Below are positions 27,352 to 33,186 of a stretch of 64,000 bases of DNA, piece after piece. Position 1 is the stretch's first letter; every line of letters begins with the position of its first letter. The DNA comes from Promethearchaeota archaeon (GTDB lineage Archaea; Asgardarchaeota; Lokiarchaeia; Sigyniarchaeales; SOKP01), in NCBI GenBank assembly GCA_016839555.1, contig JAEOUA010000010.1, forward strand, positions 256,001 to 320,000, in the 5' to 3' direction. Position numbers and translations under genes: made by a program. The notes beneath the pieces are model-generated. The model worked only from the letters and a program-made list of their open reading frames with translations. It had not been told where the DNA came from and did no database searches.

Positions 27352-27810
27352 ATGATGGATGAAGAAATTTCCCGTGAAAAAAAAGAAAATGAATTAAAGA
27401 TTTTTAACGAGGCAGTTGAATATTTTAATCAATATGATGACATCAGCAACCATGAACCATTAAAATCTACTGAAATGTTTAATAGTATTCTTTTGCGAGA
27501 CCAAATGTTATCTGAGCTTAACAATTTAAAAGAATTAATTTTGAATAATCCTGATTCTAAAATAAGTCAGTTATCAACTGAGGAAAAAGAAGTATTTAAT
27601 AAATTTATGAAAGCATACTCTATATGTCCGATATGTGGAGGTCATAATCACTATTATAATCTTAAAAAAATATATTTTGATGAAGATGTAAGTGATTTAA
27701 AGGAATATTTAGTTGAAAATATGAATTCCAGAGAAAAAAAGATTGGAGCACTTACCGTGATTACAGGTATTGTATGTTGTGGTTGCTTCAAAAAGTATTT
27801 AAAACCTTAA
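27352..27810 (+). CDS. Hypothetical protein with a CPIC-x3-NH...GIVCCGCF putative metal-binding domain
   Basis: 152-aa ORF; C-terminal half aligns by eye with the C-terminus of the GTPase at 53481-54485. Confidence 0.75.
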   Translation: MMDEEISREKKENELKIFNEAVEYFNQYDDISNHEPLKSTEMFNSILLRDQMLSELNNLKELILNNPDSKISQLSTEEKEVFNKFMKAYSICPICGGHNHYYNLKKIYFDEDVSDLKEYLVENMNSREKKIGALTVITGIVCCGCFKKYLKP

Positions 27811-28217
27811 ATTTACAAATCATTTAAGTATTTAATAATTTCCCCGTTTTGGGTTATTTGAAAATAATTATTCTTGCTAACTTTATCCTTAACTACTTCT
27901 ACACAAAACGCTTTTTTTAAATAATCCAGATTATATTTTGAAACGTCTTTTTTATTTAGAATACTTTTATTTTTTAATTCTATGTATAAAAATAGCGCAA
28001 TTTAAAAATCAATGCTCTTAACTTGATATTATTATAGCTATTGTTAATGTTTTTTCTCAATATTTTTTTATATTAATTTTTCTACAAAATTTTTATTAGA
28101 ATTTTAATAAATTAAAAACCTCAAGTTTAAATAGTTCTTTTAAGATATATAATATTGAGAATAATATTAATAATATTAAAAATATAAATCATATCTTTTC
28201 CAAAGGAGTATAAAATA

Positions 28218-28340
28218 ATGTGTCTCCATTGTAATTATTGGAATGTTGAAAACCTCAAGAAGGCAAGCCCCAAACCTAAGTTAGAATCATCCTCAGAAGA
28301 AGTTAAACCCGTTTATCAAAGTACCCCTCATCAAGAATAA
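28218..28340 (+). CDS. Small 40-aa ORF (MCLHCNYWNVENLKKASPKPKLESSSEEVKPVYQSTPHQE), below the ORF-track cutoff
   Basis: AAGGAG SD-like motif at 28203-28208, ATG at 28218, TAA at 28338-28340; more GC-rich than the flanks; poly-T run downstream. Confidence 0.5.
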   Translation: MCLHCNYWNVENLKKASPKPKLESSSEEVKPVYQSTPHQE

Positions 28341-28432
28341 TTATCTTTTAAAATAACTCGAAACATTATATCATCTTACTAATAATCAGTGATAATTTGT
28401 TCACAGATTAAAGGAAATTTTTTTAATTTACC

Positions 28433-28452
28433 TTTTTTCTTTTTTTTTTTTA
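28433..28452 (+). terminator. Poly-T archaeal-type terminator candidate
   Basis: Nearly pure T run about 90 bp after the 40-aa ORF. Confidence 0.35.
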
Positions 28453-28580
28453 TATAAGCAAATTTTTTACCTTACAAATTCAAATTTTTAAAAATTAAAC
28501 TTCCAGTTTTATAAAATTAATCTCTCAAACTTAAGATGGTATGATTAATAATTTCAAAAAATGGAGAAAAAGATAGATTT

Positions 28581-29126
28581 TTAATAGATTCCACGATATT
28601 TTCGCCGGAGACTTATAAATAGACCTTTAAAAAAGGGGAGGTATATTAAGATTATTGCAATCACTATTGCTATAATATTTAAAACAATCCCGAGTATCGC
28701 AAATACACCCCCCATATCTATGAAAAGATTTTTTGACTCATTAGCGCGTAATTTTTGCCGTATCATTCTAGAAATAATACCTAATGAACAACCAGCAATA
28801 CTAGAGAGTATAGCAACTAGTCCAAACACCTCAGTCACCAATTTTAATTCTTCATCAAAATAATATGATTCATAAAAAATATAATATGTAGACTGAACAG
28901 AATTTCTTAGAATTAATATAAGAGCTAAACCGATAATTATAAAGATGATTGCTATTATAAAAGACGATAATCCGAGGATAAAACATCTTTTCGACTCTTT
29001 TATAGTAGTAACATCTGAATCAGAAGTTTTCATAGATATCCTCAAGTCTGCTCCACAATGGTCACAAAATTTTTGATCTGAAGACTTTAATTTTTCACCA
29101 CATTGAGGACAATACAAATTATTCAC
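28581..29126 (-). CDS. Zinc-ribbon + 3-TM membrane protein, array copy 1
   Basis: CPQCG...KFCDHCG, three TM helices; GTG start. Confidence 0.85.
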   Translation of the reverse strand: MNNLYCPQCGEKLKSSDQKFCDHCGADLRISMKTSDSDVTTIKESKRCFILGLSSFIIAIIFIIIGLALILILRNSVQSTYYIFYESYYFDEELKLVTEVFGLVAILSSIAGCSLGIISRMIRQKLRANESKNLFIDMGGVFAILGIVLNIIAIVIAIILIYLPFFKGLFISLRRKYRGIY

Positions 29127-29159
29127 ATATTTATTTTTATTATTATATATTACAATATT

Positions 29160-29226
29160 TTAGATTTCGAAAATAAAATTAAATGATTATATTATCAAAG
29201 AGAGGTTCTTATATAAAAATGTTACT
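29160..29226 (-). promoter_or_regulatory. Conserved array promoter/5'UTR, copy 1
   Basis: + strand TTAGATTTC...AATGATTATATTATCAAAGAGAGGTTCTTATATAAAAATGTTA; gives a TTTTATATA TATA box on the coding strand. Confidence 0.65.
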
Positions 29227-29382
29227 TCACTATCTCAATTGAAAAAATTTTGAAAAGTTAAAAAAAAAACTCTAATTTAATTTTTGTTGATAATAAAGCT
29301 TCTATATGATTGAGAAATATTTCCTCATCTAGAAATTACAATAAATTCTTGATATCATATGGAAAAAAAAGAAAAAATTTGA

Positions 29383-30006
29383 TTAATAATAAAAATAATA
29401 TCTAAGTTCTTCAAGGCTTGGAATATTTTTCATAAGTTCGTAAAAAAGTTGAAAATAAAAGGGGATAAAACATAATAGCACACCAATTATTAACCCATTT
29501 ATGTTTATAAAAATACCAAGCATTTCGAGATAACTACTTATCTTTATTAAACGATTATTTGATTCATTAATTAATCTTTTCTGTCTTATTATTTTAGCAA
29601 TTATTCCTAATATAATCCCCGCAACGCTAATTAATATAAAAACTATTCCGAGCATTAAACTTAAGGTTTTCAATTCTTCTTCTAAAATAAGTTCACCTTT
29701 GATAAAATAAAAACCCGCTTTAAAAAGTATCAAATCTAAAAAATTATATTCCCAATGGACAGAATTTAAAATTTTGAAAATAAAGCGTAAACCAATAATC
29801 ATGGAAATTAATCCTAATATAAAAGAAACTATTGCGAGAACAAAAGATATTATTATATACTTTTTGGATATTCCCTTTTTGGTTTCAGTAATTTTTGGTT
29901 GAGAAGATTTTGCTTTAATTTTCAATTCTGCTCCACAATATCTGCAAAACTTTTGATCTGGCGATTCTACTTTTTTACCACAGTTAGGACAATTCAATTC
30001 CTTCAC
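29383..30006 (-). CDS. Zinc-ribbon + 3-TM membrane protein, array copy 2
   Basis: CPNCG...KFCRYCG, three TM helices; GTG start. Confidence 0.85.
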   Translation of the reverse strand: MKELNCPNCGKKVESPDQKFCRYCGAELKIKAKSSQPKITETKKGISKKYIIISFVLAIVSFILGLISMIIGLRFIFKILNSVHWEYNFLDLILFKAGFYFIKGELILEEELKTLSLMLGIVFILISVAGIILGIIAKIIRQKRLINESNNRLIKISSYLEMLGIFININGLIIGVLLCFIPFYFQLFYELMKNIPSLEELRYYFYY

Positions 30007-30039
30007 GAATTTTATTTATATAAATATATATTAAATAAA

Positions 30040-30113
30040 TTAGATTTCACAGCTTTAATAAAATTAAATGATTATATACCAAAGAGATAATCTTATATAA
30101 AAAGGTTATCATG
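30040..30113 (-). promoter_or_regulatory. Conserved array promoter/5'UTR, copy 2
   Basis: TTAGATTTC...AATGATTATATACCAAAGAGATAATCTTATATAAAAAGGTTATCATG. Confidence 0.65.
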
Positions 30114-30287
30114 CTAGCTTTATAAATAAATCTTTTAAGATTCTAAAGGATTTTTGCATCCAAACTTTTCCCAAAAACAGTTATAATCTACTTTAAACTA
30201 TAAAAAAAACTCGATGATTGATATTAAAAAATCTCAAATCTAACAGAATAAAGAATTAAATCGCTCCAATAATAAAACTTATTTTAT

Positions 30288-30908
30288 TTAAAATCCATAC
30301 ATAAATTGATTTACGTGTATATTATACTCAAGAATATACTTGGGAATATATAATAAGATCCCTCCGATTAAAATACCTAATATACTCAATGCAATCCCTA
30401 CTATACCAAATATAAAACCAATTTTTCGTAATTTCTTACCTGCTGTTTCATCACGAGCTCTTTTCCTTATTGCCATAGCAATGATTCCTAATAGAGACCC
30501 AATAATACCAAAAATAATAAGTAATAAACCAAATAAATAAGCTCCCTGTTTTAAATCTTCTTCTAAAATATATAAAGGTTCAGGAACACCGAAATAAAAA
30601 CCTTCCTCTAAACACACCTTAACGTAAGTAAGTTCAGAAAACCCATATTCTAGGGAAACAGATGATCCTACGGAGAAAAAAACGGGTAAACCGATACTTA
30701 TGGAAAGTAATGCTAAAAAGATAGATACAGTTGCTAATCCAAAGAATATTTTTGAATATTCTCTAGTTGCTTTATTATTTTTATGAGAATTTTGAAACTG
30801 AGATTTTTCTCTATTTATATTCAATTCTGCTCCACAATTTCTGCAAAACTTTTGATCTAAAGACTCTAATTTTTTTCCACATTTAGGACAGCTCAAATTC
30901 TTCACCAA
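30288..30908 (-). CDS. Zinc-ribbon + 3-TM membrane protein, array copy 3
   Basis: CPKCG...KFCRNCG, three TM helices. Confidence 0.85.
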   Translation of the reverse strand: MVKNLSCPKCGKKLESLDQKFCRNCGAELNINREKSQFQNSHKNNKATREYSKIFFGLATVSIFLALLSISIGLPVFFSVGSSVSLEYGFSELTYVKVCLEEGFYFGVPEPLYILEEDLKQGAYLFGLLLIIFGIIGSLLGIIAMAIRKRARDETAGKKLRKIGFIFGIVGIALSILGILIGGILLYIPKYILEYNIHVNQFMYGF

Positions 30909-30937
30909 TTTTATTCATATGAATATTCTTAAATAAC

Positions 30938-31011
30938 TTAGATTTCGAATATTTAATAAAAGTTAATTTTTATATTACCAAAGGGATAATCTTATATAAA
31001 AATATTATCAT
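30938..31011 (-). promoter_or_regulatory. Conserved array promoter/5'UTR, copy 3
   Basis: TTAGATTTC...TATATTACCAAAGGGATAATCTTATATAAAAATATTATCAT. Confidence 0.65.
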
Positions 31012-31110
31012 TGGGCTTTTTTAAATATTTGTTTGGGATATTAAAAAATAATGCATATTATACTATTTTCAAGACATATGATTCATTAAATTCTAGACCA
31101 ATCAGAGATC

Positions 31111-31659
31111 TTAAAAAACGGCGACAATAAAGGGCATTGATCTATATAGGATAATTCCGAAGATGATTCCTACTACACTTATAGTGATCCCCAATATTCC
31201 AAAAATTCCCCCAATTTTAACTAATCTACCATTTAGATCATAAGATACTGCTTTTCGTCTCAATAACAGAGAGCTACTTCCTAATAAAAGACCAGCAAGA
31301 CTTAATATTATAATCCCTATTCCAATCACATGAAGATATCTCTCTCTTTCCTCACTTCCAATGACTCCCCAAGAAGGAAAAATTGTACTCTCATAGCTTA
31401 TCATACCAAAACTAGAATATAGAGATGCTCTTATGGATAGAATAAAAGCTAGACCGGTTATTGTAGTAGATAATGCTAAAAGAAAAGAAATTAATGCAGT
31501 TATAAAGCATATTTTTGAATAATTTTTAGTTTTGGTTTCTTTTTCAAGGGAAATTTGGGGCTGAGAAGCATCAGTAGGCAATTTCAAGTCTGCTCCACAA
31601 TATCGACAAATTTCTTCATTAGGAGTATCCAATTTTGCTCCACAATTAGGACAATACAT
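31111..31659 (-). CDS. Zinc-ribbon + 3-TM membrane protein, array copy 4
   Basis: MYCPNCG...ICRYCG, three TM helices. Confidence 0.85.
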   Translation of the reverse strand: MYCPNCGAKLDTPNEEICRYCGADLKLPTDASQPQISLEKETKTKNYSKICFITALISFLLALSTTITGLAFILSIRASLYSSFGMISYESTIFPSWGVIGSEERERYLHVIGIGIIILSLAGLLLGSSSLLLRRKAVSYDLNGRLVKIGGIFGILGITISVVGIIFGIILYRSMPFIVAVF

Positions 31660-31701
31660 CTTTTTTGCTTTTTCTATTTAATTAATTATATTTAAGAAAT
31701 A

Positions 31702-31776
31702 TTAGATTTCAGAAATTAACAAAAATTTAATGATTATATTATTAAAGAGATAGTCTCGTATAAAAATGTTATCATG
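31702..31776 (-). promoter_or_regulatory. Conserved array promoter/5'UTR, copy 4
   Basis: TTAGATTTC...AATGATTATATTATTAAAGAGATAGTCTCGTATAAAAATGTTATCATG. Confidence 0.65.
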
Positions 31777-31905
31777 TTTAGATTTTTAATTGAATTTGAT
31801 TATTGAGAATAAAAAAAATAAACGTAATTTTAGAAAATAAGATTGAAGTTTCAGCCGTTCCAGAATTCAAAGAAAAACATCGAAAAATCATTTGACCTTG
31901 GAACT

Positions 31906-33186
31906 TTAGATATTCTCCTCATTTTCTACTAAGATGTCTTTGATTGTTAAATTTTTACCGCAGTAAGGAGCTAATTCATTAAAGAATTCTGTGGGATCGG
32001 GGAAGGTTTCTTCCGGTGTTAAAAGCCCCTTTTTGGAAACCTTTCCTTCGAGTAGCATGCGGGCACCTATAGCTAGAGATACTCCTGTTCTACCCGCCAT
32101 TTCACCATATGGTTCACGAAGCAACGCAACTCCCACTTTTTTTCTCTTTCCGTTTCGCGTGCCAATGGCGATTACAGATTCCGTGGGGGGTCCTCCATAA
32201 AATTCTTTTAATAATTCACGATTCTTTCCGGTTAAAGCGGATTCCTCTATTTTAGCTAAGGCATTATTTAACTTAAAAGCAGCTTCCTCGAAACTAAGCT
32301 CTTTATTTTTGATTTTATCACAATATTGACGGAGAATTTCTGTTGCGGACTCACCTAATCGCATTAAATTTGATACATTATTTGTTTTTATAGTTCTATA
32401 GAGGGTTACAGGTTCGGGATGACCTATATGACAAGCATATACATCTTTATAGCCAGGAAATGCGAATCTTTCGGCAGGGGTAAGGGCCTCGATTTTAATT
32501 AATTTACCATCTTTATAGGTGGGTATATTACCAAAACTTTGATTCAATAAATGCATAATAGCAGCATTGGGTTTATTTGGTATATTAAGGCCACCGTATA
32601 CTCCTTTCTGTAATCCTAATTTTTTACGCAATTCTTCTGGTTTAACATAATATTTAGGTTTTCTTCCTTCTTTTCTATTAATATAATAACCCCACGAGGT
32701 AATAATTTCATCTATAGTATCTAATTTTGAACAAGCTCTAACAGCAAGAAGATTTAGGATACCCGGGCTAGCTCCCATTCCAATAAGTGCTGTAATACCT
32801 GCATTTTTTACTTTATCACCTAATTTGAGCGCATCTAATGTTGGTTTAGCATCATCACAAAGGTCAATGATTGATTTTTTCGCTTTTATCGCTGCTTCTA
32901 AAATGGGAATTTCAAATTTGGAAAAAGGACCAACACAGTTAGTAATAAAATCATGTTCTGACATAATTGAAAGTAATTTTTCTGTGTCTAATACATCTAA
33001 TTGGATTGCAGATAATTTAGGAGAATCAACCAAATCAACAAAATTAGAAGCAAGATCATAATTTATGTCTGCTACGGTTATTGATGATATCTGAGCCGAT
33101 TCCAGTAAAATAGCTACGGCCATTCTTCCCATATCTCCTGCTCCTCCTAAAGCTAAGATTTTCATTTTTTCTTTCAACATTATCAA
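31906..33186 (-). CDS. Saccharopine dehydrogenase/lysine 6-dehydrogenase-like NAD(P)-dependent oxidoreductase
   Basis: LGGAGDMG Rossmann motif, NCVGPF, GMGASPG, GHPEPVTL. Confidence 0.85.
   Translation of the reverse strand: MIMLKEKMKILALGGAGDMGRMAVAILLESAQISSITVADINYDLASNFVDLVDSPKLSAIQLDVLDTEKLLSIMSEHDFITNCVGPFSKFEIPILEAAIKAKKSIIDLCDDAKPTLDALKLGDKVKNAGITALIGMGASPGILNLLAVRACSKLDTIDEIITSWGYYINRKEGRKPKYYVKPEELRKKLGLQKGVYGGLNIPNKPNAAIMHLLNQSFGNIPTYKDGKLIKIEALTPAERFAFPGYKDVYACHIGHPEPVTLYRTIKTNNVSNLMRLGESATEILRQYCDKIKNKELSFEEAAFKLNNALAKIEESALTGKNRELLKEFYGGPPTESVIAIGTRNGKRKKVGVALLREPYGEMAGRTGVSLAIGARMLLEGKVSKKGLLTPEETFPDPTEFFNELAPYCGKNLTIKDILVENEENI

What the first reader, a model, noticed from the sequence alone, without database searches (positions are those of the whole stretch)
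28581..31776. Tandem array of four zinc-ribbon/3-TM paralogs with variable outward-facing loops, a candidate diversified receptor or immunity cassette
Seen: four co-oriented paralogs at a 750-900 bp period. They share a CPxCG-x9-CxxCGA(D/E)L zinc ribbon, TM1, TM2 with G..LG, a basic loop (RQK/RKR/RRK) and TM3. The TM1-TM2 loop differs strongly in length (about 25-50 aa) and sequence, is aromatic/acidic and ends in a shared EE/EED motif. The C-terminal tails also differ. Inference from the positive-inside rule: the zinc ribbon and TM2-3 loop are cytoplasmic, so variation is concentrated in the two outward-facing segments. That pattern is expected for receptors or virus/toxin-immunity proteins under diversifying selection. 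TM2-TM3 resembles DUF4190-like hairpins, but no function can be read from the sequence.
Basis: partly seen in the sequence, partly recalled or inferred. Interest (0 to 1): 0.8.

Follow-up and report, generated by a model that had tools for sequence, protein, structure and literature searches.

The report
Asgard zinc-ribbon membrane-protein gene array
Four neighbouring genes of an Asgard archaeon encode related small membrane proteins (a zinc-binding head inside the cell and three membrane helices); they are real, old and fast-evolving, but they do not show the signature of a hypervariable receptor or immunity cassette, and their function is unknown.

Summary
Four co-oriented paralogs (37-43% identical) each have an N-terminal C4 zinc ribbon, a disordered basic linker, TM1, an acidic/aromatic outer loop, and a TM2-basic turn-TM3 hairpin. 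Each gene also has its own copy of a ~90-nt promoter/leader block.

- **Age:** the array is old. Every copy has 1:1 orthologs in the same order in related genomes.
- **Turnover:** a fifth member (W5) present in two relatives has been deleted here. A same-genus genome has only three members.
- **Rate:** the proteins evolve faster than syntenic neighbours (38-58% vs 66-85% identity; omega 0.4-0.66 vs 0.06-0.20).
- **Where the divergence lies:** it is not confined to outward-facing parts. The cytoplasmic linker is the most variable segment.
- **Selection:** no region has omega significantly above 1.
- **Context:** no defence, phage or viral link was found.

The TM2-TM3 hairpin is DUF4190-like (hhalign probability 97.5%) but scores below Pfam's cut-off. 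The family has about 300 clusters at 50% identity. In the genomes sampled it was found in only one GTDB family of Promethearchaeota, often in tandem, and no domain model covers it as a whole.

The most likely role is a set of co-regulated, partly redundant membrane-anchored zinc-ribbon adaptors. That mechanism is inferred, not shown. The scan had noted this stretch before only in first-reader notes on the same DNA.

The parts
28581..29126 (-). W1: zinc ribbon + 3-TM paralog (181 aa from GTG; likely start TTG at 29117)
   Evidence: ORF; Pfam zinc ribbon. Orthologs: L036:428-991 (83% aa), L037, P0007, G005.
29383..30006 (-). W2: paralog (207 aa from GTG; likely start TTG at 29997). It is the most diverged orthogroup.
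   Evidence: It is 46% aa identical to L038:1801-2406. No W2 type is present in the G005 array.
30288..30908 (-). W3: paralog (206 aa; likely start TTG at 30896, giving 202 aa like orthologs P0002 and P0005)
   Evidence: AF2 model pLDDT 81.6 with a beta-alpha-beta loop 1.
31111..31659 (-). W4: paralog (182 aa, ATG start). Its loop 1 is well conserved among orthologs.
   Evidence: AF2 model pLDDT 78.6 with the same scaffold and a coil loop 1.
29159..29246 (-). Promoter/leader block upstream of W1 (TATA-like TTTTTATATAAG, then a conserved leader ending in GAAATCTAA). In relatives this copy precedes W5.
   Evidence: nhmmer hit E 7e-16; alignments.
30039..30131 (-). Promoter/leader block upstream of W2
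   Evidence: nhmmer E 3e-17.
30936..31025 (-). Promoter/leader block upstream of W3
   Evidence: nhmmer E 3e-15.
31701..31791 (-). Promoter/leader block upstream of W4
   Evidence: nhmmer E 9e-15. It is 82% identical to L038 upstream of its W4 ortholog.
29127..29382 (-). W2-to-W1 spacer: the scar of the W5 deletion, and unusually conserved
   Evidence: 92% nt identity to the L038 W2-to-W5 spacer, against 68% for the adjacent W2 CDS. No Rfam hit and no stable RNA fold.

Best explanation
This is an old, vertically inherited tandem cluster of a fast-evolving family of small integral membrane proteins. In the genomes sampled, the family was found only in one GTDB family of Promethearchaeota (Asgard archaea).

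Each protein has, in order:
- a cytoplasmic C4 zinc ribbon;
- a disordered, basic linker of about 20-25 residues;
- a long TM1;
- a short acidic/aromatic extracytoplasmic loop;
- a TM2-basic turn-TM3 hairpin that is a divergent DUF4190-type hairpin.

The unit of duplication was promoter + leader + gene, so the four genes share nearly the same regulatory input.

Inferred mechanism: the three-helix bundle is a permanent membrane anchor. It holds the zinc ribbon, a protein- or nucleic-acid-binding module, on a flexible tether at the inner face of the membrane. The paralog-specific loop 1 and C-tail give each member different contacts on the outside. The members form a co-regulated, partly redundant set rather than an obligate complex, and they evolve under relaxed purifying selection rather than an arms race.

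Shown: architecture, topology signals, orthology, rates, array turnover, promoter copies and distribution. Inferred: what the zinc ribbon binds, and any sensing or adaptor role.
For: - **Architecture:**
- **Charge distribution:** linker +3.5, loop 1 -2.8, loop 2 +4.0.
- **Constraint on the scaffold:** the zinc ribbon is the most constrained part (omega 0.23-0.25; 59% identity between paralogs), followed by the TM helices (omega 0.32-0.49). The linker evolves at about the neutral rate (omega 1.0-1.3), as expected for a tether.
- **DUF4190-like hairpin:** hhalign probability 97.5% over 39 columns. Six of the eight PF13828 hits in the genome are family members. A true ZnR-linker-DUF4190 protein is encoded in the same genome.
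- **Age of the array:** 1:1 orthogroups and conserved order W4-W3-W2-(W5)-W1. All family loci are syntenic with G005.
- **Dispensable members:** W5 is deleted here. G005 has W4-W3-W1 only.
- **Regulation:** the promoter/leader block occurs only at the four genes, plus a faint copy at one paralog.
- **Distribution:** 297 clusters at E<=1e-10, and all named ones are Asgard. Found in 24 of 61 genomes of one GTDB family and 0 of about 190 others, frequently in tandem.
- **Analogy only:** in Haloferax CdpC, a zinc ribbon on a long disordered linker tethers FtsZ1 to the membrane, and that protein also evolves fast (10.64898/2026.07.16.738847).
Against: - No partner, ligand or expression data exist.
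- No neighbour gene recurs across independent family loci.
- Fold searches give only generic three-helix bundles (best Z 11.3, below the roughly 13 noise level for helical bundles).
- Overall omega of 0.4-0.66 is high. NG86 on 24-27% GC DNA is crude, so episodic positive selection at a few loop sites cannot be excluded.
- The conserved set and order of paralogs would also fit a hetero-oligomer.
- The 92% conservation of one spacer is unexplained.
Confidence: 0.45

Rival explanations
1. Diversified receptor or virus/toxin-immunity cassette. The outward-facing loop 1 and C-tail are recognition surfaces under diversifying selection, and the array provides a repertoire.
For: - The family evolves 2-3 times faster in amino-acid terms than syntenic neighbours.
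- Length and sequence variation in loop 1 and the tail is large.
- Copy number differs between close relatives, and tandem arrays are typical of the family.
- Distribution within its GTDB family is patchy.
- One contig (L039) looks like a recombinant between two array members.
- Loop 1 omega against species B has a confidence interval that reaches 1.13.
Against: - No region has omega significantly above 1.
- The cytoplasmic linker and loop 2 are as divergent as loop 1.
- Loop 1 of the W4 type is conserved above the gene average across the genus.
- The copies are old 1:1 orthologs in fixed order.
- There are no PADLOC hits, no meaningful PHROG hits and no relatives on viral contigs.
- The neighbours are metabolic genes (HdrA-MvhD, saccharopine-dehydrogenase-like, MFS), with no mobile-element or defence-island context.
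Confidence: 0.15
2. Subunits of one hetero-oligomeric membrane complex. The paralogs assemble through their TM bundles (small-residue motifs in TM2 and TM3) into a defined mixed complex, which would explain why the set and its order are kept.
For: - Orthogroups and gene order are conserved.
- Promoters and leaders are near-identical, or the genes are packed like an operon with 53-63 nt gaps in G005, which implies co-expression.
- G/S positions are invariant in all three TM helices.
Against: - Members are lost without loss of the rest: W5 here, and W2 and W5 in G005.
- Several family members in the same genome are solitary.
- No multimer prediction could be run with the tools available.
Confidence: 0.15
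3. Drifting, nearly neutral small membrane proteins with no specific function, kept only by weak selection and on their way to loss.
For: - Omega is high (0.4-0.66) compared with 0.06-0.20 for neighbours.
- Three of the four genes appear to use weak TTG/GTG starts where orthologs use ATG.
- One member was deleted recently.
Against: - All ORFs are intact in every genome examined.
- The zinc-ribbon cysteines are invariant in 83 family representatives.
- Zinc-ribbon omega is 0.23 and TM omega is below 0.5.
- Promoter/leader blocks are conserved between species at about 82-92%.
- The family persists across at least five genera.
Confidence: 0.1

Closest known systems
Zinc-ribbon + DUF4190 (PF13240/PF13248 + PF13828) small membrane proteins of bacteria and archaea, including this genome's own example at G000:C10:114323-114487 (L083:391-780:-)
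   Same: An N-terminal C4 zinc ribbon, a low-complexity linker, and a two-helix hairpin with the G-L-x-x-G-I-x-S ... E-x-x-N ... K-x-G ... I-x-N pattern (hhalign probability 97.5%). Function is unknown in both. The nearest ESM-Atlas clusters are of this type.
   Different: This family has an extra TM helix and a 26-44 aa outer loop inserted before the hairpin. That puts the hairpin turn on the cytoplasmic side. It scores below the PF13828 cut-off (13-21 vs 35 bits). In the genomes sampled it is restricted to one Asgard family and is organised in tandem arrays.
DUF4064 (PF13273) and DUF7139 (PF23600) membrane domains
   Same: Sub-threshold hits over TM2-TM3 in a few members. One distant database hit (P0022) carries a zinc ribbon plus DUF4064.
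   Different: Only 3 of 83 members hit either model at E<=0.01, and none reaches the cut-off.
TcaA of Staphylococcus (NCBIfam NF053815), N-terminal part
   Same: A cytoplasmic zinc ribbon followed directly by a TM helix. The weak local match covers residues 4-75 (E about 4e-5, 21-23 bits).
   Different: TcaA is 463 aa with a large extracellular domain and a cut-off of 550 bits. Only the ZnR-TM1 arrangement is shared.
CdpC, the FtsZ1 membrane anchor of Haloferax volcanii (10.64898/2026.07.16.738847)
   Same: A working analogy. It is an archaeal protein in which a conserved zinc ribbon on a disordered linker is held at the membrane and binds a cytoplasmic partner. Its sequence also evolves fast while the zinc ribbons stay conserved.
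   Different: No sequence relationship was tested or claimed. CdpC has two zinc ribbons and an amphipathic-helix anchor, and it has no TM bundle.

Membership tests
Pfam zinc-ribbon domain (PF13240 Zn_Ribbon_1 / PF13248 Zn_ribbon_3) | Score above the curated cut-off (25 / 27 bits) with two CxxC pairs | tested here: met
   All four proteins score 26.4-29.5 bits on PF13240; W1 and W2 also pass PF13248. The four Cys are invariant in 83 family representatives.
DUF4190 (PF13828) | Score at or above Pfam's gathering cut-off of 35 bits | tested here: not met
   W2 scores 18.2 bits and W3 14.9 bits. In the six-frame genome scan, family members score 13-21 bits. Only 6 of 83 representatives hit at E<=0.01 and none passes the cut-off.
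DUF4190 (PF13828) | Profile-level homology of the two-helix hairpin to bona fide members | tested here: met
   hhalign of the family profile (A4) against four true DUF4190 proteins (A5) gives probability 97.5%, E 6.5e-12, 39 columns covering the end of TM2, loop 2 and the start of TM3. Caveats: TM segments inflate such scores and the template profile is thin.
DUF4190 (PF13828) | Two-TM architecture with the hairpin directly after the N-terminal region | tested here: not met
   This family has an additional TM1 and an outer loop before the hairpin. The genome's true member has only the hairpin.
Ninjurin (PF04923) | Reciprocal detection by the Pfam model | tested here: not met
   The family profile hits Ninjurin-2 (8szb_F) at E 0.0017 over the TM hairpin. 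PF04923 finds no family member in the genome; its only hit is an unrelated site at E 0.43.
Known anti-phage defence proteins (PADLOC-DB) | Match to any defence-system model | tested here: not met
   No model matched any of the four proteins at E<=0.01.
Claudin / MS4A(CD20)-like four-TM proteins | Sequence or fold match above noise | tested here: inconclusive
   Pfam Claudin_2 and CD20 each hit 2 of 83 members at E of about 3e-4 to 4e-3. Foldseek rows for claudin-3, CD20 and FcERI-beta have E 0.3-0.9. This family also has three TM helices, not four.
Loci under diversifying selection (arms-race cassette) | dN/dS > 1 in the exposed segments | tested here: not met
   Pooled NG86 omega for loop 1 is 0.76 [0.50-1.13] and 0.49 [0.24-0.86]; for the tail it is 0.91 and 0.26. 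Only the cytoplasmic linker reaches about 1.0-1.3, with a confidence interval spanning 1. Site-level tests were not possible.

The most novel reading that the evidence does not exclude
The array is a repertoire of surface-recognition modules specific to one lineage of Asgard archaea. Each paralog shows a different small ecto-loop to partners outside the cell (syntrophic partner cells, viruses or the cell's own surface layer) and relays occupancy to the cytoplasm through its tethered zinc ribbon. Members would be gained, lost and recombined between strains, as suggested by the W5 deletion and the L039 chimera. This would be a previously unrecognised, minimal transmembrane signalling or recognition system in close relatives of eukaryotes.
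Probability: 0.12. Interest if true: 0.75.

Novelty: new variant of a known kind. Interest (0 to 1): 0.35.

Why it matters
Asgard genomes are searched intensively for membrane and cell-surface innovations, yet most of their lineage-specific membrane proteins are unnamed. This work defines one such family:
- about 300 sequence clusters;
- found in one GTDB family in the genomes sampled;
- often in tandem arrays.

It also gives the family's domain logic: zinc ribbon, tether, an extra TM helix with an ecto-loop, and a DUF4190-type hairpin. It shows that the family evolves unusually fast while keeping old orthogroups.

The family is a tractable candidate for topology, zinc-binding and partner-capture experiments. 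If a function is found, it would also shed light on the very large and wholly uncharacterised class of zinc-ribbon/DUF4190 membrane proteins in bacteria and archaea. As it stands, this is an uncharacterised accessory family and not a demonstrated new system.

Tried and rejected
1. DNA of the 430-kb and 5.3-kb contigs that hold the best orthologous arrays could not be fetched. Their proteins were used instead, together with shorter metagenome contigs.
2. **Ninjurin homology:** rejected, because it was not reciprocal.
3. **Fold searches:** Foldseek against PDB found nothing at E below 0.09. VIA-align wide found only generic helical bundles.
4. **Rfam:** no hit across 27700-32000.
5. **Structured RNA in the conserved W2-to-W1 spacer:** z-scores of 0.02 and 1.19, so no support.
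6. **Regulon idea:** the promoter/leader block occurs nowhere else in the genome except faintly at one paralog.
7. **Concerted evolution of the 5' zinc-ribbon module:** not supported overall. Nucleotide identity is 87% between orthologs, against 77% for within-genome paralogs and 76% for non-orthologous pairs between genomes.
8. **Conserved functional partner by gene neighbourhood:** only inherited synteny blocks were found.
9. **Defence and phage libraries, viral contigs:** nothing useful.
10. **Literature:** no paper on this family, and DUF4190 is mentioned in a single unrelated paper.
11. **Bacterial sigma-70 and terminator scan:** uninformative for an archaeon, and hits were at shuffle level.
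Full report
**What is there**

Four ORFs lie on the minus strand at 28581-29126 (W1), 29383-30006 (W2), 30288-30908 (W3) and 31111-31659 (W4). They are paralogs, 37-43% identical, with 27 invariant columns. Each has these parts in order:
- a C4 zinc ribbon that passes Pfam's PF13240 and/or PF13248 cut-offs;
- a K/R-rich linker;
- a long hydrophobic helix (TM1);
- a 26-44-residue loop rich in aromatic and acidic residues;
- a second helix (TM2), a 16-residue basic turn, and a third helix (TM3);
- a tail of 9-27 residues.

AlphaFold2 models of W3 (pLDDT 81.6) and W4 (pLDDT 78.6) show the same scaffold: zinc ribbon, a disordered stretch with pLDDT below 50, and three long helices. Loop 1 is a small strand-helix-strand unit in W3 and a lower-confidence coil in W4. 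Mean net charges across 13 orthologs and paralogs are linker +3.5, loop 1 -2.8, loop 2 +4.0 and tail +1.5. One small correction is that the two Cys pairs are 10 residues apart.

Reading, a conserved GGTGA/GTGA motif sits 5-7 nt before a TTG in W1-W3. Orthologs have ATG at that position. The motif is therefore probably the ribosome-binding site, and the true starts are probably 29117, 29997 and 30896 (inference).

**Regulatory copies**

Each gene is preceded by its own copy of a roughly 90-nt block. It has a TATA-like TTTTTATATAAG with an ATAAC element just upstream, followed by a conserved leader ending in GAAATCTAA. An nhmmer model of the block finds exactly these four sites in the 3.74-Mb genome (E 1e-15 to 1e-17), plus a faint echo at one distant paralog. 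The block therefore travelled with the duplicated gene unit and does not mark a wider regulon. Nothing in Rfam matches the region.

**Whose genes these are**

The window is G000:C10:256001-320000, in a 3.74-Mb, 92%-complete genome. Database relatives that carry names are all Promethearchaeota/Lokiarchaeota/Thorarchaeota MAG proteins annotated as zinc-ribbon domain-containing or hypothetical.

A profile search of 1.84 billion representatives finds 297 clusters at E<=1e-10. Most are full-length proteins of 150-230 aa. Their only Pfam matches are zinc ribbons.

At E<=1e-12, a six-frame scan of 251 genomes of the phylum finds the family in 24 of 61 genomes of the window's GTDB family and in none of about 190 genomes of other families. 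Several genomes hold tandem pairs or triples. At most 13 candidates were scored per genome, so these counts are lower bounds. The window's genome holds 11 full-length members at 7 loci.

**The array is old but not static**

A maximum-likelihood tree of 44 members puts each of W1-W4 in its own well-supported clade with orthologs from other genomes.
- In a same-genus genome (G005) the syntenic locus holds W4-, W3- and W1-type genes only 53-63 nt apart.
- In metagenome contigs of a second relative ('species B': L038, L037) the order is W4-W3'-W2-W5-W1. W5 is a fifth paralog whose two halves, on L038 and L037, overlap with 100% identity over 27 residues.
- The closest relative ('species A': L036, with an HdrA ortholog 91% identical) also has W5 63 nt upstream of W1.

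In the window, W5 is missing. The 256-nt W2-to-W1 spacer is 92% identical to the W2-to-W5 spacer of L038 up to the leader, and then continues into W1. The W5 coding sequence was therefore deleted in this lineage, and W1 now sits behind what was W5's promoter. No W5 ortholog is present elsewhere in the genome; the best match is 51% identical.

One short contig (L039) joins a W5-type promoter and zinc ribbon to a W3-type body. It is either a recombinant or an assembly chimera.

**How fast and where they change**

*Against species A.* Seven neighbouring genes have dN 0.044-0.113 and omega 0.06-0.20. W1 has dN 0.095 but dS of only 0.245, giving omega 0.39.

*Against G005.* Syntenic non-family neighbours are 66-85% identical, while family members are 38-58% identical. 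All family loci are positionally conserved.

*Per-region NG86, pooled over ortholog pairs.*

| Region | omega vs species B [95% CI] | omega vs G005 [95% CI] |
|---|---|---|
| Zinc ribbon | 0.23 | 0.25 |
| TM helices | 0.49 | 0.32 |
| Loop 1 | 0.76 [0.50-1.13] | 0.49 [0.24-0.86] |
| Tail | 0.91 | 0.26 |
| Loop 2 | 0.44 | 0.77 |
| Linker | 1.02 | 1.31 |

*Between paralogs.* Identity is 59% in the zinc ribbon, 40-42% in the TM helices, 32% in loop 1, 28% in the linker, 29% in loop 2 and 22% in the tail.

*Loop 1 of the W4 type.* It is 68% identical between the window and G005, above the gene's mean of 50%.

Divergence is therefore high in every non-helical, non-zinc-ribbon segment on both sides of the membrane. 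The disordered cytoplasmic tether is the least constrained part, and there is no significant signal of positive selection. Length variation, however, is concentrated in loop 1 and the tail.

Caveat: NG86 on DNA of 24-27% GC is crude. dS in the array appears depressed, so absolute omega values are probably inflated. Site-level tests could not be run.

*No concerted evolution.* The zinc-ribbon coding part is 87% identical between orthologs, 77% between paralogs of one genome, and 76% between non-orthologous genes of different genomes.

**Relationship to known families**

Pfam, NCBIfam, PADLOC and PHROGs give nothing above cut-off apart from the zinc ribbon. The only other hit of note is a weak local match to the ZnR-TM start of TcaA.

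- PF13828 run over the six-frame genome picks six family members among its eight hits, at 13-21 bits against a cut-off of 35.
- hhalign of the 83-member family profile against four bona fide DUF4190 proteins gives probability 97.5% over 39 columns, spanning the end of TM2, the turn and the start of TM3.
- The genome's true DUF4190 protein itself has zinc ribbon-linker-hairpin architecture.

The family is thus best described as a zinc-ribbon/DUF4190-type protein with an extra TM helix and an ecto-loop inserted before the hairpin. It is not a member by Pfam's own threshold or architecture. ESM-Atlas neighbours are of the same kind, with scores of 0.78-0.89, so they are leads only.

A marginal profile hit to Ninjurin-2 (E 0.0017) was not reciprocated by the Ninjurin Pfam model and is rejected. 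Fold searches return only generic three-helix bundles.

**Context**

The flanking genes are an HdrA-MvhD fusion, a 152-aa Cys-rich protein, a saccharopine-dehydrogenase-like gene (absent at this position in G005) and an MFS transporter. Clustering the neighbours of 32 family loci shows only inherited synteny blocks and no universal partner. No relatives occur on viral contigs.

**Interpretation**

The most economical reading is a lineage-restricted family of small membrane anchors that hold a conserved zinc ribbon on a flexible tether under the membrane. Paralog-specific outer loops would give each member different outside contacts. The members are duplicated as promoter-plus-gene units and so are co-regulated. 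They are individually dispensable and evolve under relaxed purifying selection.

What the zinc ribbon binds is unknown. Haloferax CdpC shows that an archaeal membrane-tethered zinc ribbon can recruit a cytoskeletal protein, but that is an analogy only. Notes from earlier work in this scan describe ZnR+DUF4190 modules serving as permanent membrane anchors for pilin-like ectodomains in bacteria. I did not test those notes; they fit the 'anchor' reading.

The receptor/immunity cassette, an obligate hetero-oligomer and near-neutral drift remain as rivals with lower weight.

The 92% conservation of the W2-to-W1 spacer, next to a gene that is only 68% identical, has no explanation. It shows no RNA structure, so a regulatory function or a recent recombination between lineages are the remaining options.

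Noticed in passing
window 28218-28340 (+): A 40-aa ORF (starts MCLHCNYWN, ends PHQE) lies convergent to W1 in the otherwise 'empty' 770-bp gap. It is conserved at the same length in L036 (77.5% aa) and in G005 (50% aa), so it is probably a real small gene. It has no Pfam match.
   Followed up: partly
window 29127-29382: The W2-to-W1 spacer is 92% identical to its counterpart in L038 and 90% to L039. The adjacent coding regions are only 68-80% identical, and other spacers 71-82%. It has no Rfam hit and no stable RNA fold. The cause is unexplained: a regulatory element or a recent recombination.
   Followed up: partly
L039:1-1007: This contig joins a W5-type promoter, leader and first ~26 codons (zinc ribbon) to a W3-type body. 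It is either a natural recombinant between array members or a metagenome assembly chimera.
   Followed up: partly
G000 C5:124347-125528, C6:298440-299657, C3:147431-148696: Three of the genome's 14 AMP-binding (acyl-adenylate-forming) genes lie within 6.5 kb of family loci, against about 0.35 expected. This is a post-hoc observation, and the window array itself has none nearby.
   Followed up: partly
G000 C11:297624-302767; L059, L064, L067, L068, L074, L077: A distant subfamily (C11 type) sits in several genera next to a LuxE-like acyl-protein synthetase and, in subsets of these loci, up to three tandem B12-binding radical SAM genes, a CDP-alcohol phosphatidyltransferase and a GT2 glycosyltransferase. 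This neighbourhood has a lipid or envelope flavour.
   Followed up: partly
L036:1516-3521 versus window 27982-28054: The closest relative carries about 2 kb of extra DNA between the conserved small ORF region and the 152-aa gene. That DNA is absent from the window. Its content was not examined.
   Followed up: no
window 31906-33186 (-): The saccharopine-dehydrogenase-like gene between the array and the MFS transporter is absent at this position in G005, where the MFS ortholog (85% aa) directly adjoins the array.
   Followed up: no
window 29117, 29997, 30896: Three of the four array genes appear to start with TTG, after a GGTGA/GTGA ribosome-binding motif, where orthologs in related genomes have ATG. 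This may mean lowered translation in this lineage.
   Followed up: partly
G000 C10:114323-114487 (L083:391-780:-): A bona fide DUF4190 protein in the same genome (40.1 bits) also begins with a zinc ribbon and a linker. It is the simpler two-TM architecture from which the array family may derive.
   Followed up: partly
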